From: Candidatus Parcubacteria bacterium
GTDB taxonomy: Bacteria > Patescibacteriota > Minisyncoccia > JACPXH01
Direction of reading: 5' to 3'
DNA: 64,000 nt
NCBI GenBank assembly: GCA_016196625.1
Contig: JACPXH010000013.1
Location: 4,516-68,515 of the forward strand
Shown here: piece after piece, positions 1,436 through 49,615 of the stretch
Layout: the number at the start of each line of letters is the position of its first letter
How positions within the stretch are numbered: the stretch's first letter is position 1
Made by a program: the position numbers and the translations under genes
The notes under the pieces: generated by a model
The model's database searches: none
Told to the model about the DNA's origin: nothing
The model's input: the letters and a program-made list of their open reading frames with translations, nothing else

Positions 1436-1951
1436 ATGAAATCTCTCCCGCTCATCCCAAGAGATGACCCTACTCTCCACCAGCTCTCGCGTGAGGTGCC
1501 GGATCCGCGCGCGCCAGAAATCCATCAACTCATCCGCGACATGCAGCTTACCATGCGGGTCAAAGAGGGGGTGGGGCTGGCGGCCCCACAGGTGGGGCAA
1601 CCACTCAATATTTTCGTTATCGATCGTGAGTTCGTGGACGCCGACCGCAAGCGGCAATCGCGTTGGGCGCGGTGGTTCCCGAAGCAAGTTCCGGCCGTGT
1701 ACATCAACCCGGAACTAGTCCGGCGAAGCGGCGATGTCGTACTGCTCGAGGAGGGGTGTCTTTCAGTGCCTGGCGTGTTCGGCTTGGTGCCGCGCTGGGA
1801 GAAGGTTACGCTCAAAGCGCAAGATCAAAACGGCAGGCGGTTTCGCGTGCGTGCGAGCGGCCTTCTTGCCCACGTGCTCCAGCACGAGATGGATCATCTC
1901 GCGGGGCAACTGTTTACCGAAAAGGTGAAGAAGTATACTACCCGCAAGTAG
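1436..1951 (+). CDS. def: Peptide deformylase
   Basis: The three PDF motifs GVGLAAPQVG, EGCLSVPG and QHEMDHLAG. Adjacent to fmt in the classic def-fmt arrangement. Confidence 0.9.
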   Translation: MKSLPLIPRDDPTLHQLSREVPDPRAPEIHQLIRDMQLTMRVKEGVGLAAPQVGQPLNIFVIDREFVDADRKRQSRWARWFPKQVPAVYINPELVRRSGDVVLLEEGCLSVPGVFGLVPRWEKVTLKAQDQNGRRFRVRASGLLAHVLQHEMDHLAGQLFTEKVKKYTTRK

Positions 1952-1985
1952 CCCCGTATCTTGTGGAAGTTTCGGAAATAGATTA

Positions 1986-2017
1986 AACTTTCTAATGTAT
2001 TAATACATTAGAAAGTT
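1986..2017. promoter_or_regulatory. 32-bp perfect AT-rich palindrome (AACTTTCTAATGTATTAATACATTAGAAAGTT) directly upstream of the TrpR/YerC-like regulator gene; putative operator
   Basis: Perfect dyad read directly from the sequence. It ends 4 nt before the ATG at 2022. The 24-bp core TTCTAATGTATTAATACATTAGAA recurs at 2504 and 40764. Confidence 0.5.
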
Positions 2018-2021
2018 GCTT

Positions 2022-2480
2022 ATGCCACAGATTTCTCGTGCCCGTCTCAGTAGACAGGTTGAGGAGGAGCTCGTTGAGACGTTTCTCGAGGGCATCGTCA
2101 TCGTTCAGGATAAAAGGTTAGCGAGGCAGGTGGCGGCAGATCTGTTTACCCCCACCGAGAAAATCATGCTGGCCAAGCGTCTTCTTATCGCCGTGCTCCT
2201 CGAAGAAGGATACGACTACCGTGCCATCGAGAAGTCGCTGAAGGTTACTCCCACCACGATTAATAGCATTCGGGCCATACTGGTTCGATCGGGTGCGGGG
2301 TTTCGGGCGCTGGCCGAATTGCTCAAAGGCGGTCGTGCCACACTGAAACGTAAGCAAGAACAAGAACGCCGGAGTGAGGAGGCCACAAATCGAATCGCGC
2401 ACTTTCTTGATATGCTTCGATTACCAGTGAAAGGATCCAAGCGCGACATGATTCGTTGGCGCAAGGCGATGACCAGATGA
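2022..2480 (+). CDS. TrpR/YerC-family small DNA-binding protein (Trp-repressor-like HTH)
   Basis: LFTPTEKIMLAKRLLIAVLLEEGYDYRAIEKSLKVTPTTINS matches the Trp_repressor/YerC family pattern. The ATG at 2022 is preferred over the listed TTG at 2016. Confidence 0.6.
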   Translation: MPQISRARLSRQVEEELVETFLEGIVIVQDKRLARQVAADLFTPTEKIMLAKRLLIAVLLEEGYDYRAIEKSLKVTPTTINSIRAILVRSGAGFRALAELLKGGRATLKRKQEQERRSEEATNRIAHFLDMLRLPVKGSKRDMIRWRKAMTR

Positions 2481-2503
2481 TGAGGTGATTCTTAGTACAT
2501 ACC

Positions 2504-2529
2504 ATTCTAATGTATTAATACATTAGAAT
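2504..2529. promoter_or_regulatory. 26-bp perfect palindrome ATTCTAATGTATTAATACATTAGAAT, second copy, 24 nt downstream of the regulator stop
   Basis: Perfect dyad. The core is identical to the copies at 1986 and 40764. Confidence 0.5.
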
Positions 2530-2650
2530 AGTGGCGTGCAGCGGTCGATGGTCGCAGGAACTTGTTTTGGACCTTTCAGTTCTTCGAAATGGATTCGCGC
2601 CCGCCCAATGAGACGAAGTCTCGTCTTGGGCGGGCGCGGGGGGAACTCTC

Positions 2651-3034
2651 CTAACCTTGCACGGCCTCGGCATACTCGCGTTTGATTTGTTTGGCGGTGG
2701 GCCAAAGGAGCACCGCGAGTGAGACCACGGCAGCAACGGCGATGAACCTAATCCAGCCCCTCGGTCCCTCAACCAGCGCTGTGCCCACCAATGCGCCAGC
2801 GAGGACGGTATACATGCTGCCTACGAAGCACCCCACGAGTGTAGTATTCGCATCCGGACCTAGCTTACCGCAGGAGCCAATCGGTGCTGCTATAAGAGCC
2901 CAGACGGCCGATACTACCATCCCCGCGAGGAATGGGAAAATTTGACTACGCAACTCCCCGAGGAATATCCAGAAGAACACCAGGAGGTAGAGCCACAGAA
3001 GCATCCCAACAATAACACTCACCCTTCTCCCCAT
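2651..3034 (-). CDS. Small integral membrane protein (hypothetical)
   Basis: 127-aa ORF with about four hydrophobic helices. No recognisable motif. Confidence 0.45.
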   Translation of the reverse strand: MGRRVSVIVGMLLWLYLLVFFWIFLGELRSQIFPFLAGMVVSAVWALIAAPIGSCGKLGPDANTTLVGCFVGSMYTVLAGALVGTALVEGPRGWIRFIAVAAVVSLAVLLWPTAKQIKREYAEAVQG

Positions 3035-3149
3035 TCGATGTCCTCCTCTGTTTGCTTCGGTTTCTAGCCGAACAGTTTCAGCCCGTGGCTTGTCCGTTCT
3101 TTCTGCGGTTTCTCAGGGCACAGATTCCATGTAGCATGTCTATGTAACT

Positions 3150-4154
3150 ATGTCAATAGCTAAATTTCTCTATTTCGGCACCCCGGAATTCAGTCGGATT
3201 GTGCTCGAAGAACTCTTGGAAAGCGGCTTTGCGCCGGTTGCGGTTGTTACCGCGCCGGATAAACCGGTTGGCAGAAAACAAGTTTTGACCGAATCGCCAG
3301 TGGCGGCGTTTGCGAAGCAGAACGGTGTTGAAGTTTTGAAGCCGGAGAAGATTAAGCCGCTGGAGTTCGTTGAAAAACTGAAATCGTATCAACCCGATCT
3401 CATGGTGGTGGCGGCCTACGGGAAAATTATCCCGCAGGCAATTTTGGACGTTCCCAAACACGGCGCGATAAATGTGCATCCATCTTTGCTACCCAAGTGG
3501 CGGGGTGCTTCCCCCATCCCCTATGCGATTTTGAACGGCGATCAGAAAACCGGCGTTACGATTATGCTAATGGATGCTGAAATGGATCACGGGGCGATTT
3601 TGGCGCAGGAAGAAGTTGTGCTGAAGGGCGATGAGATAACCGTGGCGCTTACTTCTCGTCTCGCGCGTATCGGCGGCCGGATGCTGACCGAGGTTATCCC
3701 GCGTTGGCTCGCGGGCAAAGTTACGCCGGTTGAACAAGATCATGCCGCGGCGACCTATACGAAAATACTTACTAAAGAAGACGGCCGGATTGATTGGTCA
3801 AAGTCAGCAGCTCAAATCGAGCGGCAAGTGCGCGCGTTTGACCCGTGGCCCGGGGCGTGGGCGGTGTGGGCCAGAGATGGTGAAGCGTCGGTTATCAAGC
3901 TTTTGGCAGCAAGCGCAGTTCCTCATTCTGAGCCGAGGGGGAAGAATCTCGAAGCGCGCCGAGATTCTTCGGCCGCTGCGCGGCCTCAGAATGACGGGGT
4001 GGTAGCGGTGCCCGGCACGGTTACGGCTGCGGGGGTCATCACTGGCGACGGATTACTAGAGCCGGTTACGGTTCAGCTCGCTGGTAAACGCCCGATGGAT
4101 TGGGCGGAGTTTCTTCGCGGGCATGGGGATTTCGTCGGAAGCATTTTGAAATAA
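3150..4154 (+). CDS. fmt: Methionyl-tRNA formyltransferase
   Basis: N-terminal formyltransferase motifs (YFGTPEFS, HPSLLPKWRGASPI) plus a C-terminal domain. Lies downstream of def. Confidence 0.9.
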   Translation: MSIAKFLYFGTPEFSRIVLEELLESGFAPVAVVTAPDKPVGRKQVLTESPVAAFAKQNGVEVLKPEKIKPLEFVEKLKSYQPDLMVVAAYGKIIPQAILDVPKHGAINVHPSLLPKWRGASPIPYAILNGDQKTGVTIMLMDAEMDHGAILAQEEVVLKGDEITVALTSRLARIGGRMLTEVIPRWLAGKVTPVEQDHAAATYTKILTKEDGRIDWSKSAAQIERQVRAFDPWPGAWAVWARDGEASVIKLLAASAVPHSEPRGKNLEARRDSSAAARPQNDGVVAVPGTVTAAGVITGDGLLEPVTVQLAGKRPMDWAEFLRGHGDFVGSILK

Positions 4155-10117: not shown

Positions 10118-10822
10118 TTTGCTTTCTGGCCCCACGAGGCGCTTCAGATCGGCATAGGTTTTCGGCAGGTCAATGCGCCGGCCATTCACGAAAAACGCCG
10201 GCACGCTCTCGACGCCTGACTTCCGTCCGCTCCGGAGATCGTCCATGATTTTTTTGCGCACGCTCGGGTCGTTGAAGTCTTTGCGAAAGCGCTGGATATC
10301 AAGGCCGAGTTCACGGGCGTACCGTTCAAATTGGACTTCGACACGCGTCGCGCTCTTCCAGTCCGATTGGCGCTCATAGAGTATTTGATAGTAATCCCAG
10401 AACCTTTCCTGTTGGCCAGCCGCTTCGGCCGCAACCGCAGCCGAGCGGGCATTGGGGTGAATGCGATCCAATGGGAAGTGCCGGTAGATAAAGCGGAAGC
10501 GCCCGCCAAAATCTTTTTCAAGCTGATTGGTCGCTTGCCAAAAATTGCGGCAGGCCGGGCACTGGAAGTCGCTATACTCGACGACCGTAACGTGCGCCTC
10601 GGTCGGACCGCGGGTCCAGTCACGCTCGGTTGGCGCAAGCGCCAAGAGTGCGGCGGCGGTCTGCCCTGCGTTAGGCTCGATACGGGAGAGGGAAAATCGC
10701 CAGATGGCCCAAGAGATTGCGACCACAATCAAAACAATGCCCAGCCACAGGGCGTATTTCTTGGCGGATTGAGGCCATTTTCCGTTTGGAGGTTGACCGG
10801 GCATCAACCTTGAGGAAACCAA
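10115..10822 (-). CDS. DsbA-like thioredoxin-fold thiol-disulfide oxidoreductase
   Basis: CxxC active site (FQCPACRNFW) in a thioredoxin-like context. N-terminal TM/signal. Confidence 0.7.
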   Translation of the reverse strand: MVSSRLMPGQPPNGKWPQSAKKYALWLGIVLIVVAISWAIWRFSLSRIEPNAGQTAAALLALAPTERDWTRGPTEAHVTVVEYSDFQCPACRNFWQATNQLEKDFGGRFRFIYRHFPLDRIHPNARSAAVAAEAAGQQERFWDYYQILYERQSDWKSATRVEVQFERYARELGLDIQRFRKDFNDPSVRKKIMDDLRSGRKSGVESVPAFFVNGRRIDLPKTYADLKRLVGPESK

Positions 10823-18282: not shown

Positions 18283-18314
18283 ACATATTATAATACGATC
18301 GTATTATAATATGT
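18283..18314. promoter_or_regulatory. 32-bp perfect palindrome ACATATTATAATACGATCGTATTATAATATGT overlapping the start codon of the PaaX-like regulator; putative auto-operator
   Basis: Perfect dyad read directly. Half-site ATTATAATACGA. Related sites at 18967, 21361, 37578 and 49594. Confidence 0.5.
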
Positions 18315-18921
18315 GAACGGGAGGGAATCAGAGCGTATGAAGATAAACGGAGCGAAACCGGTGCGCCGGCGGCCGAAGCTACGCGGGCCTTCCCGGGAGT
18401 TCCTGCGGTATCTCGCCGTTGCCGGAGTCGTTGTGGCGATCTCATTGATTGCGCCGCAGCTTCCGGTACAGCTCCTCAAGAACTTCCTGCGCAGACGCCA
18501 CACGTTCGACCCGTCGTCCTTCAGGCAATTTGGTGCGCGTCTGCACAAGCAAGGGCTTGTCAAAATGCAGCAACGAGAAAGCATCCTTACGTTCCGTTTG
18601 ACTGCGGGGGGAGAACGTCTGGCGCAGCAGATCGCGCTCACTAACATCTCGATTGTTCGGCCGCCACGGTGGGATGGTCTTTGGCGGGTCGTCCTCTTTG
18701 ATATCCCGGAGCATGATCGCTTTACGCGGGATTCATTCCGCGCCCTCTTAGAGCGCATCGGATTTGTGAAGATTCAGCGGAGTGTGTTTGCTCATCCCTT
18801 TCCATGCGACAAAGAGATTGAGCTTGCCGTTCGAGTATTCCATCTCGATCGCTCGGTTATTCTGTTTACCGCGACGACTCTGAGCGACGATCGCAGACTC
18901 CGAAGTTTATTTAATCTGTAA
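18313..18921 (+). CDS. PaaX-family-like transcriptional regulator (wHTH + WDGxW domain)
   Basis: PRWDGLWRVVLFDIPEHD is comparable to E. coli PaaX PAWDGKWLLLLSEGLDKS. It is preceded by a wHTH-like segment and followed by GFVKIQRSVF. The start may be the ATG at 18337. Confidence 0.5.
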   Translation: MNGRESERMKINGAKPVRRRPKLRGPSREFLRYLAVAGVVVAISLIAPQLPVQLLKNFLRRRHTFDPSSFRQFGARLHKQGLVKMQQRESILTFRLTAGGERLAQQIALTNISIVRPPRWDGLWRVVLFDIPEHDRFTRDSFRALLERIGFVKIQRSVFAHPFPCDKEIELAVRVFHLDRSVILFTATTLSDDRRLRSLFNL

Positions 18922-19003
18922 GCCGAGCAGATTCTCGATCTGGTTTCTGATTTTCTGTTTGCCAAATTATACTACGATCGTATTATAATGCGTAAACGTT
19001 TGG
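18907..19003. repeat. About 95-bp segment (3' tail of the PaaX-like gene plus downstream near-palindrome 18967-18990), duplicated at 37517-37616
   Basis: About 97% identity to 37517-37616 (copies differ at 2 positions; TTTATTTAATCTGTAAGCCGAGCAGATTCTCGATCTGGTTTCTGATTTTCTGTTTGCCAAATTATACTACGATCGTA[T/G]TATAATGCGTAA[A/G]CGTTT). The site ATTATACTACGATCGTATTATAAT is a 24-bp dyad with one mismatch. Confidence 0.6.
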
Positions 19004-21360: not shown

Positions 21361-21386
21361 CATTATAATACGATCGTAGTATAATG
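21361..21386. promoter_or_regulatory. 26-bp near-perfect palindrome CATTATAATACGATCGTAGTATAATG (PaaX-like site family), solo copy
   Basis: One mismatch in the dyad. Lies about 95 bp beyond the 3' end of the giant gene. Confidence 0.45.
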
Positions 21387-28593: not shown

Positions 28594-31020
28594 TTACCGC
28601 CCGGTCCCCTGCTCTGTGGGTGGAGCTGTGGTGAGCGCGGGCATTTGGGAAAGTCGGGTCCGAACTTCTTGTTCGACCGCCGCGCGGTCCCGGCCGTATA
28701 TTGAGCTCGACCACTGCCGAACTGCGTGTGCCGCCGCCGGATCCCCTTTGCGCGGCAGGTTGATCACAAAGTTAAAGGGCGAAGTGGTTTTGCCTTGAGA
28801 CATGAGCCGCGCGTAGGCGTTGAAGTTATCAAGGTTGATGAGATCAGATGCGGCAAAGGCCGGCGCAAACTGGGGTTCGATGGATTCGGCGTCTTCCACT
28901 CCCACCCGAAACGAAACCAAGGATCCCACGTTGCCGAAGACCGCGTTTTTGATTTCGTCCGTGAGTTGTTTGATGAATTGATGCGCGAGCGTGAGATTGA
29001 GCCGGTACTTGCGTGCTTCGGACAGGATTGTCGCAATGGACGGGGTCGCGAAGCTCTGGAATTCGTCCAAGTAGAGGTAAAAATCGGACCGCGCCTCCTC
29101 GGCTGCGTCGGTTCGGCTCAAAGCCGCCAAAAGCAGTTTGCCCACGAGAATCAGGCCAAGGAGGGAGCTGTTGAGTTCGCCCAGACGCCCTTTGGTGAGG
29201 TTAACGAGGAGAATCTTGCGTTCGTCCATCACTTGGCGAAAATTAAATGAGCTTTGCTCTTGGGCGATGATGGGGCGCATGATGTCGTTGGCAATGAACA
29301 GGTTCATCTTTGAAGTGATGTAGGGCACCATGTTCGCGAGCGCCGCTTCCCCGCCGGCTTTCTCCGCCTCCAGCTCCCAGAAATTCTTGATTACCATGTT
29401 CGTCGTGCGTGAGAGTTTCAACTTGCGAAACTCTTTATCCGCGAGCACCCGCGGGATTTCCAGGAGCGTATTGCCGGAGGCAGGATCTTCCATGACCAGC
29501 AGCACGGCGTTGCGCATGTATTGTTCAAACATGGGCCCGCCGGTAACTTTCAGATCGTAGAGCTTGTCAAAAATGGCGATGAGTTCATTCGCGATGAAGG
29601 TTTTCTGCTCGGGGTGCGCCGGGTCATATTCAAGCATGTTAAGCCCGAGGGGCCGTTCGATGTCGCCCGGGTTGAAATAGATTACTTCTTCCCGGCGGCT
29701 CGCGGGCACGAGTCCGAGGAGGTCGTCGGCCAAATCTCCGTGCGGGTCTATAAGCGCAAGGCCCTCTCCGGCCTCAATGTCTTGACGCGCGAGTTCTTTG
29801 ATGAGCGACGATTTGCCGGTTCCAGTTTGGCCTATAATATAGAGGTGTCTCCGGCGGTCTTCGCGCGCGATACGGATTACGGTTTCTCTGCCCCGAAAGA
29901 CGTTGCGCCCCAACATCAGACCTTCAAGGGGAAGGTTGAGCGGCGGCTCGGCCTGACGGGCTTTGAGCGCGTGCAGTTTGGGTGCTTCGAGCGAGGGGGT
30001 CGCAAAGTGATACATGCTACTCAACTCATCGGCACTCAAGATAAGCGCATCGCGTGAACGAAAGAGACGCCATGAAAACGCAAAGAGAAGCGACTCCAAC
30101 CGGCCGCCCTTGCGCCGCTTAAATGAGAGCGAGTTGGTCGGGGGAGCGCTCAAGGGGGCAAAGGCGGTTTCCATCTGTTCGAGCAGCGCTTTCGCCCGAG
30201 TCTCTTCTGCCGCCGAGGCCACCACCCGAACATTGGCTGCAAAGACGGGCGTGCGGGCCTTGCGCTCGATGGCCTCCACCGCTTCGGGGTCAACGGGTTC
30301 GTTCTTGCTTTCGCCGGGGCCTCGGGTCGAGTTTGCTTTGAGCTTTTGGGCTTGGGCCACGCTTTCGGCGCCCCAGCGTTTGGGAGCGGGTTGGAGCAGA
30401 ATTTGGATGGCCGCACCCTCCCCTTCTTTGGCAATTTTGCTTAAGGCCGTGGCAATCGCGCTTAAGGGATCCACTTCAAGCTCACGGAAGGTGCGCAGCG
30501 ACAGGCGGCTGTTTTTGACCTCAAGGATTGAGGCTTCGTGTCTGCCGTGGGGATTGAACAGGTTATAGTCCGGTACCGCCTCGATTACGGCTTCCGGGAA
30601 AAAGCCGTGGATGTGTTTTTCGAACGCTTCAGCCAGCCGCCTCGGGAAGGCCGCGAAAAACTGAATTTCCTCGCCCACATGGGGGACGGCCAGTTCAAAG
30701 GCAACCGTGGGCATCCCCCGGAGGATCGCCCGCCACCACTTCTCTTTTAGAAACGTCAGGCTCGCGTAGAACTGACTCATGACGGCGAGCCCCTCGCGCA
30801 TTCGTTCCACTGCCGATCGATCCGACTCCAGGGGACGGTTCGGAAGCGCAATCGCGAAGAGGGCGAGGTTCAGGGCGCGCGCGGTCTCCCCTCGGCGTCG
30901 GAGCGTAACTAAACCCCAAGCCGCCGCAGTGCCGCCCACCGTAAGGACGGCGAGGGTTATGAGGATGAGCCAGAGGAGGAAAGAGAGATCGAGGGGCACG
31001 GTCAAAAGTTCAAATGCCAA
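28594..31020 (-). CDS. Membrane-anchored VirB4/TraG/HerA-like P-loop NTPase (AAA_10/DUF87-type)
   Basis: Two N-terminal TM helices. Walker A GQTGTGKSS followed by LIDPHGDL, Walker B FYLYLDEFQ, then LTLAHQ. TTG start at 31018-31020 lies inside an AT-rich heptad leader. Confidence 0.55.
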   Translation of the reverse strand: MAFELLTVPLDLSFLLWLILITLAVLTVGGTAAAWGLVTLRRRGETARALNLALFAIALPNRPLESDRSAVERMREGLAVMSQFYASLTFLKEKWWRAILRGMPTVAFELAVPHVGEEIQFFAAFPRRLAEAFEKHIHGFFPEAVIEAVPDYNLFNPHGRHEASILEVKNSRLSLRTFRELEVDPLSAIATALSKIAKEGEGAAIQILLQPAPKRWGAESVAQAQKLKANSTRGPGESKNEPVDPEAVEAIERKARTPVFAANVRVVASAAEETRAKALLEQMETAFAPLSAPPTNSLSFKRRKGGRLESLLFAFSWRLFRSRDALILSADELSSMYHFATPSLEAPKLHALKARQAEPPLNLPLEGLMLGRNVFRGRETVIRIAREDRRRHLYIIGQTGTGKSSLIKELARQDIEAGEGLALIDPHGDLADDLLGLVPASRREEVIYFNPGDIERPLGLNMLEYDPAHPEQKTFIANELIAIFDKLYDLKVTGGPMFEQYMRNAVLLVMEDPASGNTLLEIPRVLADKEFRKLKLSRTTNMVIKNFWELEAEKAGGEAALANMVPYITSKMNLFIANDIMRPIIAQEQSSFNFRQVMDERKILLVNLTKGRLGELNSSLLGLILVGKLLLAALSRTDAAEEARSDFYLYLDEFQSFATPSIATILSEARKYRLNLTLAHQFIKQLTDEIKNAVFGNVGSLVSFRVGVEDAESIEPQFAPAFAASDLINLDNFNAYARLMSQGKTTSPFNFVINLPRKGDPAAAHAVRQWSSSIYGRDRAAVEQEVRTRLSQMPALTTAPPTEQGTGR

Positions 31021-31088
31021 AATCCAAATGCCAAATCAAACTTAAAGTTCAAAATCCAAAATCGCTTCGGCATTTGGGCTTTGGATTT
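31021..31088. promoter_or_regulatory. AT-rich heptad-repeat leader (units TTTGRMW) abutting the ATPase start
   Basis: Shares an about 55-nt block (AAATGCCGAAGCGATTTTGGATTTTGAACTTTAAGTTTGATTTG) with 33745-33821. Related repeats at 31488-31551, 49621-49675 and 60941-61124. Confidence 0.5.
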
Positions 31089-31487
31089 CTAAATTGGTTT
31101 CAGTTTTCCCCTGCTCACTAAATCGTTGTACAGGTGGTCCACGAGAGCATCGTGGAAAGCGTCAATGAGGCGCGCGTTGTGCGAGGCCTTGACCGCGCCA
31201 ATGGCTTGCCCCAAGCCTTTGAGGAACGCGACGTCAACGAGCTCTTGCACCTTCAGTGCTTCTTCTTGGGCGGTCGGAGCGCCCCCGGACGCTTGGCCAG
31301 TGGTTGGAGGTACGGTGATGTTTGGCGGCGGGACCGCGCCCGCGATTTTTTCGCCGACGTATTCGCGAATCGTTGCTCGCTCCGATTCCGGTTCGCGCTG
31401 TTCAGAGAGCGTCTGCTTGCGCTCCGCGAGGCGCTCCTCAAGCTCCCGGATTTCTGATTCAAGCTGATGAGGGGTTTCGTAGGGCAT
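31089..31487 (-). CDS. Coiled-coil hypothetical protein (132 aa)
   Basis: ATG at 31485-31487 (MPYETPHQLESEIRELEERL...) directly follows a heptad-repeat leader. Confidence 0.45.
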   Translation of the reverse strand: MPYETPHQLESEIRELEERLAERKQTLSEQREPESERATIREYVGEKIAGAVPPPNITVPPTTGQASGGAPTAQEEALKVQELVDVAFLKGLGQAIGAVKASHNARLIDAFHDALVDHLYNDLVSRGKLKPI

Positions 31488-31551
31488 ATCTCGAAATGAC
31501 AAATGCCAAAATCCAAATGTCAAATGCAAAATCAAACAGCGCTACAGTATA

Positions 31552-37522: not shown

Positions 37523-37616
37523 TTAATCTGTAAGCCGAGCAGATTCTCGATCTGGTTTCTGATTTTCTGTTTGCCAAATTATACTACGATCGTAGTATAA
37601 TGCGTAAGCGTTTTGG
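37517..37616. repeat. Second copy of the 95-bp PaaX-gene-tail + palindrome segment (perfect 24-bp palindrome ATTATACTACGATCGTAGTATAAT at 37578-37601)
   Basis: Near-identical to 18907-19003. Abuts the 5' end of the NUDIX reading frame. Confidence 0.6.
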
Positions 37617-38776: not shown

Positions 38777-39229
38777 ATGCCGACGCGGAGAGGACGAAGG
38801 GTACTCTGTTCCATTCAGCCGAGACAGGGAGCTGTTTCTACGGAGGCGTTCGAGCTTGTTCGCGAGGGGGCGGGCGAACTCTTGAACGCCCTCGGCATTG
38901 CTCCGCTGCGCAACGGTCGAGAGCGCGTGCACGCGGTTCTGTGTGACCCTGGCCGCACCATGGTGTTTGTCCACGTTTGGAACGTGGACGTGGGGGCGCT
39001 TCGACCGGCGGTGGTTGCCCAGAAACTGGAGGGCACGCCGTTCCAAGAGATATCCTCTTTGGACGGGGGATATTCTCGCCGCTTCAGCTGGCAGGCGGGG
39101 CCATGGACTTTGAAGTTCATCTTGTGGCCCTCGCTTGCACCCGACGACCTCAACTTCTCGCCGAAATACGATGCGCGTTGGGGCATCTTCTGGATCGGTC
39201 AGGAAGTGCCGGCCCCGGCCGCTCGCTAG
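38777..39229 (+). CDS. Hypothetical protein (150 aa)
   Basis: Strong SD AAGGAGGAGGA before the ATG. Confidence 0.45.
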   Translation: MPTRRGRRVLCSIQPRQGAVSTEAFELVREGAGELLNALGIAPLRNGRERVHAVLCDPGRTMVFVHVWNVDVGALRPAVVAQKLEGTPFQEISSLDGGYSRRFSWQAGPWTLKFILWPSLAPDDLNFSPKYDARWGIFWIGQEVPAPAAR

Positions 39230-40545
39230 GCTTCGGAGTTATGGGCCCTGCGCAGACCACGCGCCGGGCTCTTCTTTTTCGCAGTGCGCTTGCGCGGGAT
39301 TACACTGAAACCAAGGTAAGGCTGGAGCGCTTTTGGCATTGCCACTGACCCGTCTTTTTTCTGAAAGTTTTCTAAAATCGCAATGATGGCCCGCGAGGTG
39401 GCGATGGCGGTACCGTTCAAAGTGTGTACATAGCCTGTTTCACCGCTGGCTTTCCGATATTTGATGCCGAGACGCCGGGCCTGATAGTCGGTCGTATTCG
39501 AGGTTGAGGTAACCTCGCCCCAATCGTTTCGTCCGGGCATCCAGGCTTCAAGATCAAACTTTCGAGCCGCCTGGGCCCCCAAGTCCCCGGTACACATTTC
39601 CACCACGCGGTATGGGATGCCCAGTCCCTGCCAGAGCGCTTCTTCAAGCGCAAGCAACTCCGCGTGCAATTTGGGCGAATCTTCCGGTTTGATGTACACA
39701 AACATTTCCACCTTTGTGAATTGGTGCAGGCGATAGAGGCCCTTTGAGTACCGGCCGTAGCCGCCGGCCTCTTGCCGGAAACAGTGCGAGTAGCCGGCAT
39801 AACGTTTGGGCAGGGAGTCTTCGGGCAAGATTTCATCAGCATGGATGCCGGCCAGCGTAACTTCGGCGGTGGCAATCAAGCCAAGATTGGAATTTTCAAT
39901 AACGTACGTCTGCGCTTCCGGCCCCCGCGGCAGATAGCCGGTCCCAAGGTAGAACCGGTCGCGAGCAAGATCGGGGGTAAGCCAAAGCGCAAAGCCCTTT
40001 TTGGCAAGAAAATCGAGGGCATAGCGCACGAGCGCCAGTTCAAGTAGGATGCCTTCATTCTTGAGATAGCAGAAATCAGCGCCCGCAACTTTACTACCGG
40101 CCTCGAAGTCAAGAATACCGAGCGCGGTTCCGAGCTCAAGATGATCTTTCGGCTGGAAGAGGAACGTCGGTTTCTTCCCCACCTCGCGCAGCGCTTGGTT
40201 TTGCGATTCGTCTTTCCCGACCGGCACGGTTTCTTGGGGCAGGTTCGGTAAAGTAAGCAGTATCTCCTCCACCGCTTTGGCCGCGGCCGCAAGCCCTTTT
40301 TCTTTTTCTGCCAAGAGACCGCTCAAGCGTTTCGCTTCGGTAAGTAGCGTCTCGTCTTTCCCCAGCCGGCTGATTTCTGTGGAAACTTTGTTTTTGCCGT
40401 GTCGCAACTCTTCAACTTCCTTGATGAGCTGACGATGCCCGGCATCAGTTTTGAGAAATTTGTCGGTATCGAACGCAAAGCCTTTCTTTTTCAGGCCAGC
40501 TTTCACGTAATCTGGCTGTTTGCGGATAAGGTGGATGTCGAGCAT
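39226..40545 (-). CDS. serS: Seryl-tRNA synthetase
   Basis: N-terminal coiled-coil arm and class II core motifs (e.g. RYAGYSHCFRQEAG, GLYRLHQFTKVEMF). Confidence 0.9.
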   Translation of the reverse strand: MLDIHLIRKQPDYVKAGLKKKGFAFDTDKFLKTDAGHRQLIKEVEELRHGKNKVSTEISRLGKDETLLTEAKRLSGLLAEKEKGLAAAAKAVEEILLTLPNLPQETVPVGKDESQNQALREVGKKPTFLFQPKDHLELGTALGILDFEAGSKVAGADFCYLKNEGILLELALVRYALDFLAKKGFALWLTPDLARDRFYLGTGYLPRGPEAQTYVIENSNLGLIATAEVTLAGIHADEILPEDSLPKRYAGYSHCFRQEAGGYGRYSKGLYRLHQFTKVEMFVYIKPEDSPKLHAELLALEEALWQGLGIPYRVVEMCTGDLGAQAARKFDLEAWMPGRNDWGEVTSTSNTTDYQARRLGIKYRKASGETGYVHTLNGTAIATSRAIIAILENFQKKDGSVAMPKALQPYLGFSVIPRKRTAKKKSPARGLRRAHNSEA

Positions 40546-40599
40546 ACGTGAGGAATATAGAATCTCGAATTATGAATCACGAATAACGGCTTAAATTCT

Positions 40600-40728
40600 T
40601 ACCCAACGCACCAGAAGGCCATCGGCTCCTGCCGGTAGATGAATGGTTGGTGCGTAGGCCTTCGGTGCGGGGTTCCGCCCCGCCACCGAAGTACGAGGTG
40701 CCGCCGACTCCAGTCGGCGGGGCTCCAC
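40600..40728. repeat. Hairpin-rich repeat element, copy B (129 nt), in the serS upstream region
   Basis: Near-identical to 14006-14161, including the stop-codon-proximal end. Remains open in the DEAD-helicase frame. Confidence 0.6.
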
Positions 40729-40763
40729 TCCGCGATTTCATGGTTAGTCTTCGTGGTAATTCG

Positions 40764-40793
40764 CCATTCTAATGTATTAATACATTAGAATGG
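40764..40793. promoter_or_regulatory. 30-bp perfect palindrome CCATTCTAATGTATTAATACATTAGAATGG, third copy of the TrpR-like site
   Basis: Perfect dyad. Lies 14 nt after the NUDIX-HD gene stop and about 220 nt upstream of the serS start. Confidence 0.5.
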
Positions 40794-40806
40794 AAGGATG
40801 GCGTGT

Positions 40807-41808
40807 CTACAGACCGAGTTCGGGAGAGATGCTCCGCATCGCTTCAAGACTCAAGCGCGTTACCGCTTCAAGCGACAGGCCGATCATGTCAGGAGCTTTG
40901 GCAATGATATCGCGGTTGACCCCTTTCGCAAAAGACTTTTCTTTGAACTTTTTGAGCACCGACTCGACCGAAACGTCGGCCAGCTTCTTGGAGGGCTGCA
41001 CTAGCGCGGCGGCGGTAATGAGGCCCGTGAGTTCTTCTACACAAAAGAGTGTTTTTTCAAGCAGCGTCTCTGGCGCAATGCCGTGGTGCCAATTGTGAAC
41101 CTTGATCGCTTTTACAATGTGAGGCGCAAGCCCGGCTTCGGTGAGGATCCGTTCGGCCATGAGCGTGTGCTCGGGAAAATTATCCTTGGTTTTCTCCCAA
41201 TCTACATCATGCAAGAGTCCCGTGAGCGCCCATTCGTCGGCGTTTTCGCCAAAATGTTCGGCCAAACGCCTCATTACCGCCTCGGCCGCGAGGAGGTGTT
41301 TTTTGAGGTTGGGGTTTTGGATGTGTTGGTTAATGATGCTAATTGCTTGCGCTCGGTCCATATCAGCCGGTTTTCTGGTAAGCCGGAGGTACTCTTCGAC
41401 GCCCTTTAACCAGCCCCCGGTGAAGTACTGCTGCGGTCTGAGCGAAGAAAGTGGTACCCATAGAAACTCGGAATGCGTTGACGAGAGTCGCACCTCACCC
41501 TTCGTCCAGTGCGCGGCAAAGCCGATGGCAAAAATTCGGACAGGTTTATGGAGCGAGCGCTCCCGTCGTTCATGGCGCATGAATACAATTGCTTGACCGA
41601 GCGTGTATCGGATTGTGAGACCCAATTCCTCTCGAGCTTTTCGTTCGATGATTTTATTAAGCGGCGTCGCAAATTCATTCGTGCGGATTCTGCCACCCGG
41701 CAGGTCCCAATCTCCGAATACGTCCTTGATGATGAGGAGCGTGTTCTTCCGCCTGAGAAACATTTTCACCGCCACAAAATACAGGTCTTTAGCGGCAAGG
41801 TTCCTCAT
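40807..41808 (-). CDS. NUDIX hydrolase fused to an HD-domain phosphohydrolase
   Basis: N-terminal Nudix region (LPGGRIRTNEFATPLNKIIERKAREELGL). C-terminal HD signature (HDVDW ... HNWHH). Confidence 0.65.
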   Translation of the reverse strand: MRNLAAKDLYFVAVKMFLRRKNTLLIIKDVFGDWDLPGGRIRTNEFATPLNKIIERKAREELGLTIRYTLGQAIVFMRHERRERSLHKPVRIFAIGFAAHWTKGEVRLSSTHSEFLWVPLSSLRPQQYFTGGWLKGVEEYLRLTRKPADMDRAQAISIINQHIQNPNLKKHLLAAEAVMRRLAEHFGENADEWALTGLLHDVDWEKTKDNFPEHTLMAERILTEAGLAPHIVKAIKVHNWHHGIAPETLLEKTLFCVEELTGLITAAALVQPSKKLADVSVESVLKKFKEKSFAKGVNRDIIAKAPDMIGLSLEAVTRLSLEAMRSISPELGL

Positions 41809-49593: not shown

Positions 49594-49615
49594 TTATACT
49601 ACGATCGTAGTATAA
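49594..49615. promoter_or_regulatory. 22-bp perfect palindrome TTATACTACGATCGTAGTATAA (PaaX-like site family), about 160 bp upstream of mreB
   Basis: Perfect dyad. The downstream flank TATGTAAGCGTT resembles the flanks of the copies at 18990 and 37601. Confidence 0.45.

What the first reader, a model, noticed from the sequence alone, without database searches (positions are those of the whole stretch)
1986..2529. TrpR/YerC-like regulator gene bracketed by identical AT-rich perfect palindromes
A 32-bp perfect palindrome (1986-2017) ends 4 nt before the ATG of a 153-aa Trp-repressor-family HTH protein. A 26-bp perfect palindrome with the same 24-bp core (TTCTAATGTATTAATACATTAGAA) lies 24 nt after its stop, at 2504-2529. 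Perfect AT-rich dyads of this length are very unlikely by chance in a high-GC genome. The upstream copy looks like an auto-operator. The downstream copy is not in a promoter position (the neighbouring gene is convergent), so the unit may be a roadblock or a small mobile cassette.
Basis: partly seen in the sequence, partly recalled or inferred. Interest (0 to 1): 0.7.

Follow-up and report, generated by a model that had tools for sequence, protein, structure and literature searches.

The report
Repressor gene bracketed by its operators
A small Trp-repressor-like regulator gene of an uncultivated Parcubacteria (CPR) bacterium has the same long palindrome, most likely its own binding site, on its promoter and again just after its stop codon, and this two-site bracket recurs in most relatives of the gene across CPR bacteria.

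Summary
Perfect palindromes lie at 1986-2017 (32 bp) and 2504-2529 (26 bp) around a 152-aa TrpR-fold gene (2022-2480). A third copy lies at 40764-40793. The 24-bp core has 3 exact hits against 0 expected.

The pattern is family-wide. In 53 of 64 non-redundant homologue loci from CPR metagenomes, the flanks before the ATG and after the stop share a 20-mer at >=17/20. Only 8 of 372 control genes do. The sequence differs between lineages, but all versions are built on ATG-N8-CAT.

Upstream copies sit inside a sigma-70 promoter: a perfect TTGACA lies at the -35 position in 14/54 loci, and the -10 is in the right half-site. No downstream copy has a -35 (0/54). Downstream copies are kept at the same rate whether the next gene is convergent (13/15) or co-directional (36/42).

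Operator bases covary with HTH residues. I found no sign of RNA-hairpin selection, a transposase or recent mobility.

Best reading: an autorepressor with a promoter operator plus a promoter-less auxiliary operator at the 3' end. The auxiliary site probably acts by cooperative looping, or possibly as a roadblock.

An unrelated PaaX-like regulator in the same window (18337-18921), and 6 of its 7 sampled homologues, show the same bracket. It is a new variant of a known kind. Binding is untested.

The parts
1986..2017 (.). O1: upstream operator, a 32-bp perfect palindrome (core 1990-2013) that overlaps the inferred core promoter of the regulator gene
   Evidence: By register with homologues, the palindrome spans from just after the -35 to about +1.
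2004..2009 (+). Inferred -10 hexamer TACATT inside the right half-site. The implied transcription start is near 2016, giving a leader of about 6 nt (almost leaderless).
   Evidence: Inferred by alignment with homologues that carry TTGACA-17-TATCAT. The consensus scan found no canonical promoter in the window itself.
2022..2480 (+). Gene for a 152-aa TrpR-fold HTH regulator (CPR-specific subfamily; helical C-terminal extension at residues ~92-151)
   Evidence: PF01371 33.7 bits. PDB profile hits 3frw/3g1c/3kor at E ~1e-10. AF2 mean pLDDT 76.7. Foldseek top hits are TrpR and TrpR-like chains. Identical to NCBI HYZ80_03005, Candidatus Parcubacteria.
2504..2529 (.). O2: downstream, promoter-less copy of the operator (26-bp perfect palindrome; 2501-2532 with one mismatch). 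Centre is 515 bp from the O1 centre.
   Evidence: Homologues keep a second copy centred ~15-21 nt after the stop.
2596..2638 (.). GC-rich hairpin (13-bp outer stem CGCGCCCGCCCAA/TTGGGCGGGCGCG) between O2 and the convergent membrane-protein gene. It is a possible 3'-end structure with no U tract.
   Evidence: fold of 2478-2660, z -6.1. Not reported as a terminator.
40764..40793 (.). O3: third copy (30-bp perfect palindrome). It lies 14 nt after the stop of a NUDIX-HD gene (40807-41808, minus strand) and ~220 nt upstream of serS (39226-40545, minus strand). It is a candidate regulon site.

Best explanation
The gene encodes a dimeric TrpR-fold repressor of a large CPR-specific family, and the palindrome is its operator. 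O1 covers the gene's own core promoter, from the -35/-10 spacer through the -10 to the transcription start. Bound protein would therefore exclude RNA polymerase, giving negative autoregulation. O2 is a second operator of equal quality and has no promoter of its own. It lies in the first non-coding bases after the stop codon, ~480-515 bp from O1. I propose that O2 is an auxiliary operator. Protein bound at O2 would cooperate with protein at O1 through a DNA loop that encloses the gene, held by contacts between dimers, perhaps through the family-specific C-terminal helices. The loop would tighten and steady the feedback. A protein sitting at the 3' end would also hinder polymerases leaving or entering the gene. 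O3 and the rare extra copies are ordinary regulon operators at other promoters. Shown here: the sites, their family-wide conservation, their positions, the promoter context and the protein-site covariation. Inferred only: binding itself, repression, oligomerisation and looping.
For: 1. Bracket. 53 of 64 non-redundant homologue loci share >=17/20 of a 20-mer between -70..ATG and stop..+70. Only 8 of 372 control genes do, and 3 of those 8 are caused by this same operator. Fisher p = 3e-48. Several 'misses' have the second copy further out. The 995-kb contig locus L093 shows the same layout.
2. Lineage-specific sequences share the core ATG-N8-CAT. A7, T6 and G5 are 91-99% conserved.
3. A perfect TTGACA lies 3 nt left of the palindrome, 17 nt before TATCAT in the right half-site, in 14/54 upstream copies. 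It is found in 0/54 downstream copies and 0/54 on either minus strand. p = 5e-5.
4. O2 is retained in 13/15 loci with a convergent next gene and in 36/42 with a co-directional one.
5. Up and down copies are equally good palindromes: 12.4 vs 12.5 of 15 positions.
6. Residue 66 (Y vs Q/H) covaries with core base 4 (A vs T), p = 9e-5. Thirteen of the top 25 mutual-information pairs lie in HTH residues 66-89.
7. Fold and profile homology to TrpR and HisR, which bind ~20-bp palindromes and often autoregulate (PMC9413887).
8. Extra copies are rare, about 1 per 60 kb. Where readable they are promoter-embedded, e.g. L083 with TTGACA-17-TATCAT before an ORF.
9. Mismatches in the downstream copies show no G-U bias: 29 GT vs 39 AC. 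This argues for a DNA-level site.
10. An unrelated PaaX-like regulator in the window and 6 of its 7 sampled homologues have the same bracket. This points to a general regulatory design.
Against: No binding or expression data exist, and all hosts are uncultivated. Centre-to-centre distances show no helical phasing (Rayleigh p ~0.47), so nothing speaks specifically for a loop, although little phasing is expected at ~480 bp. The C-terminal extension is poorly conserved between subfamilies and modelled at only pLDDT 60-70, and its oligomeric role is a guess. The unrelated PaaX-like family shows the same bracket, so a TrpR-specific tetramerisation domain cannot be the general cause. The tight placement of O2 right after the stop codon would suit a roadblock or transcript-end role at least as well. 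In about a third of co-directional loci, O2 lies 26-55 nt before the next start codon and could control that gene. The window's own promoter has no recognisable -35. In the related MAG CAYPCM01, which carries four exact core copies, no cognate gene was found. That assembly is fragmented.
Confidence: 0.45

Rival explanations
1. O2 is a protein roadblock or insulator. Repressor bound just past the stop codon stops polymerases that have finished the gene, acting as a factor-dependent terminator. It also blocks antisense or read-through transcription from neighbours. O1 does the same on the other side. The autoregulated gene is thus a self-insulated unit in compact genomes with few intrinsic terminators. 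No loop is needed.
For: O2 starts 0-12 nt after the stop in most loci, sometimes overlapping it. No canonical terminator follows the gene. O2 is retained whatever the neighbour's orientation. Arrays such as site-gene-site-gene-site occur (L074, L083, L052). The same design in an unrelated TF family fits a general boundary function. No helical phasing is seen. By established knowledge, roadblock operators are known, for example the mycobacteriophage L5 gp71 'stoperators' and CodY, CcpA and LacI roadblocks.
Against: A roadblock after its own stop codon does not change the regulator's own expression. Its benefit should then depend on the neighbours, yet O2 is kept in all contexts. In the PaaX-like family the downstream copy lies up to 130 nt from the stop. 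There are no transcript data.
Confidence: 0.25
2. O2 is simply the operator, or operator-promoter, of the next gene downstream. The bracket would then be a by-product of a regulator placed beside its target.
For: 42 of 57 non-redundant loci have a co-directional downstream gene. In 13 of the 36 loci with a co-directional downstream gene and an O2, the O2 centre lies 26-55 nt before that gene's start, and in 4 it lies <=25 nt before it. In the tandem paralogue locus L074 the middle site does serve the second gene. Many upstream copies also lack a recognisable -35.
Against: No downstream copy has a -35 (0/54), against 14/54 upstream copies. O2 is kept in 13/15 loci where the next gene is convergent, including the window. 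Its position is fixed relative to the regulator's stop codon, not to the next start, from which it lies -7 to 327 nt away. Downstream genes are unrelated between loci.
Confidence: 0.12
3. The palindromes are the ends of a small mobile or recombining cassette: terminal inverted repeats, or Xer/dif-like sites as in pdif modules. The unit palindrome-gene-palindrome moves between genomic contexts.
For: The neighbourhood differs between 49-59% identical homologues. In L021 vs L029 (91% aa identity), similarity starts at the -35 and ends at the downstream palindrome, with unrelated flanks. L075, L080 and L082 share a breakpoint at the upstream site. Solitary copies exist elsewhere. The sites are 28-30 bp long, like dif sites.
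Against: No recombinase or transposase domain is present, and there are no hits in viral contigs. The window holds one gene copy. Synteny decays gradually with divergence: 6/8, 9/17, 19/95, 21/278. Synonymous codon identity of the gene matches that of homologous neighbours in most pairs. The site sequence is lineage-specific and covaries with the HTH, and it contains the promoter -10. No target-site duplications are visible next to the window copies.
Confidence: 0.08
4. The palindromes act as RNA hairpins in the transcript, as a 3' stabiliser or terminator downstream and a 5' structure upstream, rather than as protein-binding DNA.
For: Perfect stems of 12-20 bp would fold. Some copies in the high-GC lineage carry extra GC-rich complementary flanks of differing sequence: L012 is 40 bp perfect and the L002 downstream copy is 36 bp. 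The 3' region folds strongly.
Against: The inferred transcription start lies at the right edge of O1, so O1 is largely untranscribed. No U tract follows the downstream copies. Mismatches show no G-U preference on the coding strand, 29 GT vs 39 AC. Specific bases (AATG.T) are conserved, not merely pairing. The same sequence recurs at other promoters.
Confidence: 0.05

Closest known systems
E. coli Trp repressor (TrpR) and its autoregulated trpR promoter
   Same: Same fold: the top Foldseek hits are 1trr, 1tro and 6fal, with TM 0.7-0.75 on the target. It matches Pfam PF01371. A palindromic operator overlaps the regulator's own promoter. TrpR is a dimer with half-sites about 12-14 bp apart.
   Different: About 20% sequence identity. 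An extra conserved N-terminal arm (MxQVS[KR]) and a ~50-aa helical C-terminal extension. The operator is ATG-N8-CAT within a 26-32-bp palindrome, not GNACT-N8-AGTNC. A second operator lies after the stop codon, which to my knowledge is not described for trpR. The ligand is unknown. CPR bacteria generally lack amino-acid biosynthesis, so a tryptophan co-repressor role is doubtful.
HisR (YerC/YecD family, TIGR02531), the histidine repressor of Firmicutes (PMC9413887)
   Same: Closest solved relatives by sequence profile are 3g1c, 3frw and 3kor, at E ~1e-10. It has lineage-specific palindromic operators. About half of hisR genes are preceded by their own site. The outer part of many CPR sites (cACTTTA...TAAAGTg) resembles the HisR half-site cacTTTA.
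   Different: Below the TIGR02531 cut-off. It is 152 aa against <100 aa. The outer TTTA/TAAA elements are spaced by 14 bp instead of 6 bp, with a conserved inner AATG.T. The sites are not next to his genes. No downstream site is reported for hisR.
Auxiliary-operator loop systems (lac O1-O2 401 bp apart; lambda CI OL-OR; coliphage 186 CI flanking sites)
   Same: Two or more equivalent operators a few hundred bp apart, with only one at the promoter. In lambda the repressor gene lies between the operator sets.
   Different: Here the pair tightly brackets a single ~450-bp regulator gene. The arrangement is conserved across a whole family, and in a second, unrelated family. Oligomerisation beyond the dimer is unproven, and the two sites are of equal quality.
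Roadblock 'stoperators' of mycobacteriophage L5 repressor gp71
   Same: Promoter-less repressor sites in short intergenic gaps that could stop elongating polymerase.
   Different: Stoperators are asymmetric, orientation-dependent, numerous (~30 per 50 kb) and phage-borne. The sites here are symmetric, rare (~1 per 60 kb outside the bracket) and chromosomal.

Membership tests
Trp repressor family (Pfam PF01371 / TrpR-like fold) | Sequence match above the Pfam gathering score | tested here: met
   33.7 bits against a cut-off of 27, residues 19-85.
Trp repressor family (Pfam PF01371 / TrpR-like fold) | All-helical TrpR fold with an HTH | tested here: met
   AF2 mean pLDDT 76.7, and 83-92 over residues 31-90. 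Ranks 1-37 of the Foldseek PDB search are all TrpR or TrpR-like chains, with TM on the target of 0.67-0.83.
Trp repressor family (Pfam PF01371 / TrpR-like fold) | Intertwined dimer binding a ~20-bp palindromic operator | not testable with these tools
   Indirect support only: symmetric sites and covariation between the HTH and the half-site.
Trp repressor family (Pfam PF01371 / TrpR-like fold) | Amino-acid co-repressor pocket | not tested
   Ligand residues were not compared.
YerC/YecD = HisR (NCBIfam TIGR02531) | Score above the curated equivalog cut-off | tested here: not met
   24.4 bits against 42.2.
YerC/YecD = HisR (NCBIfam TIGR02531) | Length about 100 aa or less, without extensions | tested here: not met
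   152 aa. The PDB relatives align only to profile positions ~9-106.
YerC/YecD = HisR (NCBIfam TIGR02531) | Operator cacTTTA-N6-TAAAgtg at histidine genes | tested here: not met
   The core is ATG-N8-CAT. Window sites lie at the regulator's own gene and upstream of serS. HisR motif taken from PMC9413887.
Looping repressor with auxiliary operator | Two or more cognate operators within ~0.1-1 kb, one of them outside any promoter | tested here: met
   The O1-O2 distance is 515 bp in the window, with a family median of 483 bp. No -35 at 54 of 54 downstream copies.
Looping repressor with auxiliary operator | Protein able to bridge two sites (tetramer or higher) | not testable with these tools
   Only a monomer model is available. 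The long C-terminal helix 92-132 is a candidate.
Looping repressor with auxiliary operator | Helical phasing of the two sites | tested here: inconclusive
   Rayleigh p ~0.47 at a 10.5-bp period. Phasing is weak for loops of ~480 bp in any case.
Insertion sequence / MITE / recombination cassette | Encoded or associated transposase or recombinase | tested here: not met
   Only HTH families match in Pfam and NCBIfam.
Insertion sequence / MITE / recombination cassette | Recent mobility: near-identical copies in unrelated contexts, with divergence lower than the flanks | tested here: not met
   Synteny decays gradually. Synonymous identity is similar to that of neighbours in most pairs. A few breakpoints at the sites were seen, and no viral hits.
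Intrinsic terminator | GC-rich stem followed by a U tract on the transcribed strand | tested here: not met
   One search lists none on the + strand after the gene. AT-rich stems have A-rich, not T-rich, tails in homologues. No G-U bias.

The most novel reading that the evidence does not exclude
Operator bracketing is a general gene-boundary device of CPR bacteria. Regulators of at least two unrelated families (TrpR-like and PaaX-like) place their own high-affinity palindrome at both ends of their gene. The bound protein would then define and insulate the transcription unit, acting as a factor-dependent start block and end block, possibly closed into a loop. It would do work that intrinsic terminators do elsewhere, and it would make the regulator a portable, context-independent feedback module.
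Probability: 0.25. Interest if true: 0.75.

Novelty: new variant of a known kind. Interest (0 to 1): 0.6.

Why it matters
CPR/Patescibacteria have tiny genomes and very few regulators, and almost nothing is known about how they control transcription. This work defines a large regulator family of about 1,590 clusters at 50% identity. It also gives the family's likely operator, its promoter layout and a conserved two-site architecture. Together these give direct, testable access to gene regulation in uncultivated bacteria, because the protein and a 0.55-kb DNA fragment can be synthesised and tested in vitro or in E. coli. Two unrelated regulator families share the bracket. That hints at a design rule for autoregulated genes in compact genomes (looping, noise control or insulation) that I did not find described in the held literature.

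Tried and rejected
- Rfam at gathering scores on the whole window gave only tRNA-Gln. An E-value scan of 40450-40900 gave nothing.
- The consensus promoter/terminator scan of 1850-3250 found no sigma-70 promoter. It found only a minus-strand 'terminator' call on O1 itself.
- A viral-contig scan with the family alignment found no relatives.
- Look-up of P0003 found no contig on record.
- The genome-contig scan with the 20-mer did not find the source MAG. It found four copies in a related MAG, CAYPCM01, and one probably unrelated hit beside an IS transposase, L009. No TrpR-like gene lies in those loci.
- Helical phasing of O1-O2 showed no signal.
- Orientation of asymmetries between the two copies was not significant: direct better in 24, inverted better in 14, equal in 16. 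This gives no support for direct-repeat target duplications.
- My early impression that downstream copies are the better palindromes was not confirmed: 12.4 vs 12.5 of 15.
- I considered a dif/Xer-like reading (28-bp AT-rich sites, pdif-module analogy). I set it aside because the conserved triplets are ATG...CAT with an 8-bp centre, the sites are lineage-specific and covary with the HTH, and the upstream copy contains the promoter -10.
- I noted a reading of the 22-bp core as two overlapping HisR-type TTTA-N6-TAAA dyads 8 bp apart (tandem dimers, as in TrpR structure 1TRR). I did not adopt it, because the most conserved bases (A7 T6 G5) would fall in the 'spacer'.
- Literature searches for YerC/TrpR in CPR or Patescibacteria, and for downstream auto-operators, found nothing specific.
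Full report
**Observation.**
- A 32-bp perfect palindrome lies at 1986-2017 (AACTTTCTAATGTATT|AATACATTAGAAAGTT). It ends 4 nt before ATG 2022.
- A 26-bp perfect palindrome with the same 24-bp core lies at 2504-2529. It starts 24 nt after the stop codon that ends at 2480.
- The core has three exact copies in the 64-kb window against none expected in shuffles.
- No degenerate copies appear at up to three mismatches.
- The third copy is a 30-bp perfect palindrome at 40764-40793.

The window is 57.5% G+C. The ORF is 152 aa. It is identical to NCBI protein HYZ80_03005 of a Candidatus Parcubacteria MAG. Its neighbours are priA, def, a convergent membrane-protein gene and fmt.

**The protein.**
- It passes the Pfam Trp_repressor gathering score, 33.7 against 27.
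- It fails the NCBIfam YerC/YecD equivalog cut-off, 24.4 against 42.2.
- A profile of 16 homologues hits the solved TrpR-like proteins 3frw, 3g1c and 3kor at E ~1e-10, over profile positions ~9-106.
- An AlphaFold2 model has mean pLDDT 76.7, and 83-92 over residues 31-90. It shows five helices followed by a long helix (92-132) and a last helix (140-151).
- The first 37 Foldseek PDB hits are all TrpR or TrpR-like chains.
- YerC of B. subtilis has been identified as HisR, a histidine-dependent TrpR-family repressor. It binds 20-bp palindromes (cacTTTA-N6-TAAAgtg) and is often preceded by its own site (PMC9413887).

The window protein is therefore a TrpR-fold relative of HisR but not its equivalog. 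It has an invariant N-terminal arm (M-x-Q-V/I-S-K/R) and a ~50-aa helical C-terminal extension. The family is large: 1,590 clusters at 50% identity at E <= 1e-10. Named members come from Parcubacteria, Microgenomates and Levybacteria.

**The bracket is a property of the family.** I collected 80 loci from metagenome contigs and several more by exact-protein look-up.
- Nearly every locus has its own long palindrome centred 16-22 nt before the ATG. The same palindrome is centred 15-21 nt after the stop.
- Among 64 non-redundant loci with at least 70 nt on both sides, 53 share >=17 of 20 positions between the two flanks.
- In 53 of the 64 loci the flank match exceeded the best of 30 random windows from the same locus. 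Those control maxima are usually 13-15.
- Several 'misses' have the second copy 80-150 nt away.
- Of 372 other genes in the same loci, only 8 reach 17/20, and three of those are caused by this same operator. Fisher p = 3e-48.
- The sequences differ between lineages: AATGATTTAAATCATT, ATGATTCGAATCAT, AATGTTTTAAAACATT, ATGGTTCGAACCAT, and ATGTATTAATACAT in the window.
- All versions are built on ATG-N8-CAT within a 26-30-bp dyad. A7, T6, G5, T3 and T11 (distance from the centre) are 90-99% conserved.

The closest relative with a usable contig is L002 (59% identity). It lies between LemA and an M48 peptidase rather than def and fmt. It carries CTACAATGTATCGATACATTGTAG upstream and GTCCGCTACAATGTATCAATACATTGTAGCGGAC downstream. 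Gene and palindromes therefore travel together while the neighbourhood changes.

**What the two copies are.**
- Where a canonical promoter can be seen, TTGACA lies 3 nt left of the upstream palindrome and 17 nt before TATCAT in its right half-site. The palindrome then covers the spacer, the -10 and the start site.
- A perfect TTGACA at that position occurs in 14 of 54 upstream copies. It occurs in none of 54 downstream copies and none on the opposite strands, p = 5e-5.
- In the same register, the window's -10 would be TACATT (2004-2009). The transcript would start near 2016, giving an almost leaderless mRNA. The window itself has no recognisable -35, so this step is inferred.
- The downstream copy is as good a palindrome as the upstream one: 12.5 against 12.4 of 15 complementary positions.
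- It is kept in 13 of 15 loci with a convergent next gene and in 36 of 42 with a co-directional one.
- Its position is fixed relative to the regulator's stop codon. Its distance to the next co-directional start ranges from -7 to 327 nt.
- The centre-to-centre distance has a median of 483 bp (IQR 478-490) and is 515 bp in the window. It shows no helical phasing.

**Is the palindrome really this protein's site?**
- Residue 66 aligns with a DNA-contacting position of TrpR and HisR according to PMC9413887. It is Y where the fourth core base is A, and Q or H where that base is T (Fisher p = 9e-5).
- Thirteen of the 25 strongest protein-DNA mutual-information pairs fall in HTH residues 66-89, which are 22% of the positions tested. 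Shared ancestry inflates such numbers, so this is supportive, not decisive.
- Outside the bracket the motif is rare. There are four extra copies in ~254 kb of other loci and one in the remaining 63 kb of the window. Two copies within 0.5 kb is a strong local enrichment.
- Readable extra copies look like ordinary targets. In L083 a copy lies in a TTGACA-17-TATCAT promoter before an unknown 369-aa ORF. In L072 a copy precedes a small membrane protein. L074 holds tandem paralogues arranged site-gene-site-gene-site.
- In the window, O3 lies 14 nt after a NUDIX-HD gene and ~220 nt before serS, with a GC-rich structured leader in between.
- A related MAG (CAYPCM01) carries the exact 20-mer at murG|purB, sufD|sufS, gatA|small-ORF and one more junction. 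I assigned purB, murG, sufS, sufD and gatA by inspecting the ORF translations, not from a database match. Its relatedness is shown by a 65%-identical PaaX-like gene in the same dnaX context.
- No cognate TrpR-like gene was found in that fragmented assembly. This is a caveat.

**Rivals.**
- An RNA-hairpin role is unlikely. O1 would be mostly untranscribed and no U tracts follow the downstream copies. Specific bases are conserved rather than pairing alone. Mismatches show no G-U bias on the coding strand, 29 GT against 39 AC.
- A mobile cassette is unlikely. There is no recombinase domain and there are no viral hits.
- Synteny decays gradually with divergence. Pairs sharing a neighbour number 6/8 at >=95% identity, 9/17 at 80-95%, 19/95 at 65-80% and 21/278 at 50-65%.
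- Synonymous codon identity of the regulator gene is about equal to that of homologous neighbours in most pairs.
- Even so, some close pairs have breakpoints exactly at the sites. In L021/L029, similarity runs from the -35 to the downstream palindrome. L075, L080 and L082 share a breakpoint at the upstream site. Recombination at the palindromes is therefore not excluded.
- The reading 'operator of the next gene' fits a minority of loci. It does not fit the convergent loci or the lack of a -35.

**Mechanism.** The data establish an autoregulatory promoter operator plus a conserved promoter-less second operator at the 3' end. I favour an auxiliary-operator role: cooperative binding and looping, as for lac O2 or lambda OL-OR. 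That benefit does not depend on the neighbours, which matches the context-independent conservation. The family also has an extra helical C-terminal segment that could link dimers. The main alternative is a roadblock or insulator that sets the end of the transcription unit, and the two roles are not exclusive. The placement right after the stop codon and the absence of phasing fit the roadblock about as well. I give looping/cooperativity about 0.45 and roadblock about 0.25.

**A second case in the same window.** A PaaX-like regulator gene lies at 18337-18921 (PF20803, E 2e-19).
- It is flanked by another palindrome, ATTATA[AC]TACGATCGTA[TG]TATAAT, at 18283-18314 and 18966-18989.
- Three more copies lie at 21361-86, 37578-601 and 49594-615.
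- In 7 of the 8 loci examined (the window and 6 of 7 homologues), the upstream and downstream flanks share >=17/20 of a lineage-specific 20-mer. Six of them share 20/20.

Bracketing is thus not peculiar to the TrpR fold. It may be a general layout for autoregulated genes in these genomes.

**Verdict.** This is a new variant of a known kind: a TrpR-family autorepressor with a conserved two-operator bracket. It is of moderate to good interest because the family is widespread in CPR bacteria and the hypothesis can be tested directly with synthetic DNA and protein.

Noticed in passing
window 18283-18989 (also 21361-21386, 37578-37601, 49594-49615); loci L095, L097, L098, L102, L103, L104: A second, unrelated regulator gene (PaaX-like, 18337-18921, PF20803) is bracketed in the same way by a different palindrome, ATTATA[AC]TACGATCGTA[TG]TATAAT, and three more copies lie in the window. 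Six of the 7 homologue loci examined also share lineage-specific 20-mers between their upstream and downstream flanks.
   Followed up: partly
window 40546-40763 (minus strand): A ~218-nt GC-rich, strongly structured leader lies between the third palindrome and the serS start codon (MFE -81.7 kcal/mol, z -2.5). It has no Rfam match and could be an undescribed serS leader element.
   Followed up: partly
window 31010-31060 and 31490-31540 (around ORF 31089-31535, minus strand): Direct repeats rich in (G/C)ATTTGG units, including an identical 20-mer CATTTGGATTTTGGCATTTG, flank an unknown 132-148-aa ORF with no Pfam hit. The ORF lies next to a VirD4/TraG-like ATPase gene (28594-31020).
   Followed up: partly
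L012 6266-6305; L002 ~10479-10514; L008 ~2880-2913: In the high-GC lineage some operator copies carry extra complementary flanks that are GC-rich and differ in sequence. L012 is a 40-bp perfect palindrome, CGCCCCCATT...AATGGGGGCG, after a murG-like gene (assigned from the ORF translation). The extensions reach beyond the ~28 bp conserved in the family, and their purpose is unexplained.
   Followed up: no
L074 1141-2100; contig Ga0082335_1000175 (L014 and L018): Paralogues of the regulator occur in one genome. L074 has a tandem pair arranged site-gene-site-gene-site. L014 and L018 are two copies ~46 kb apart with nearly the same operator core, which suggests cross-talk or recent duplication.
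   Followed up: partly
window 18940-19000 and 37550-37610: Two copies of the TACGATCGTA palindrome share a further ~35 nt of upstream sequence (atctggtttctgattttctgtttgccaaattatac) and ~15 nt downstream. This is a duplicated promoter-like block whose downstream product was not identified.
   Followed up: no
L009 1909-1928: The exact 20-mer core also occurs once in an unrelated MAG, between an IS4/IS1634-like transposase gene (my reading of the ORF translation) and a divergent small ORF. It is probably a chance or convergent AT-rich promoter palindrome.
   Followed up: no
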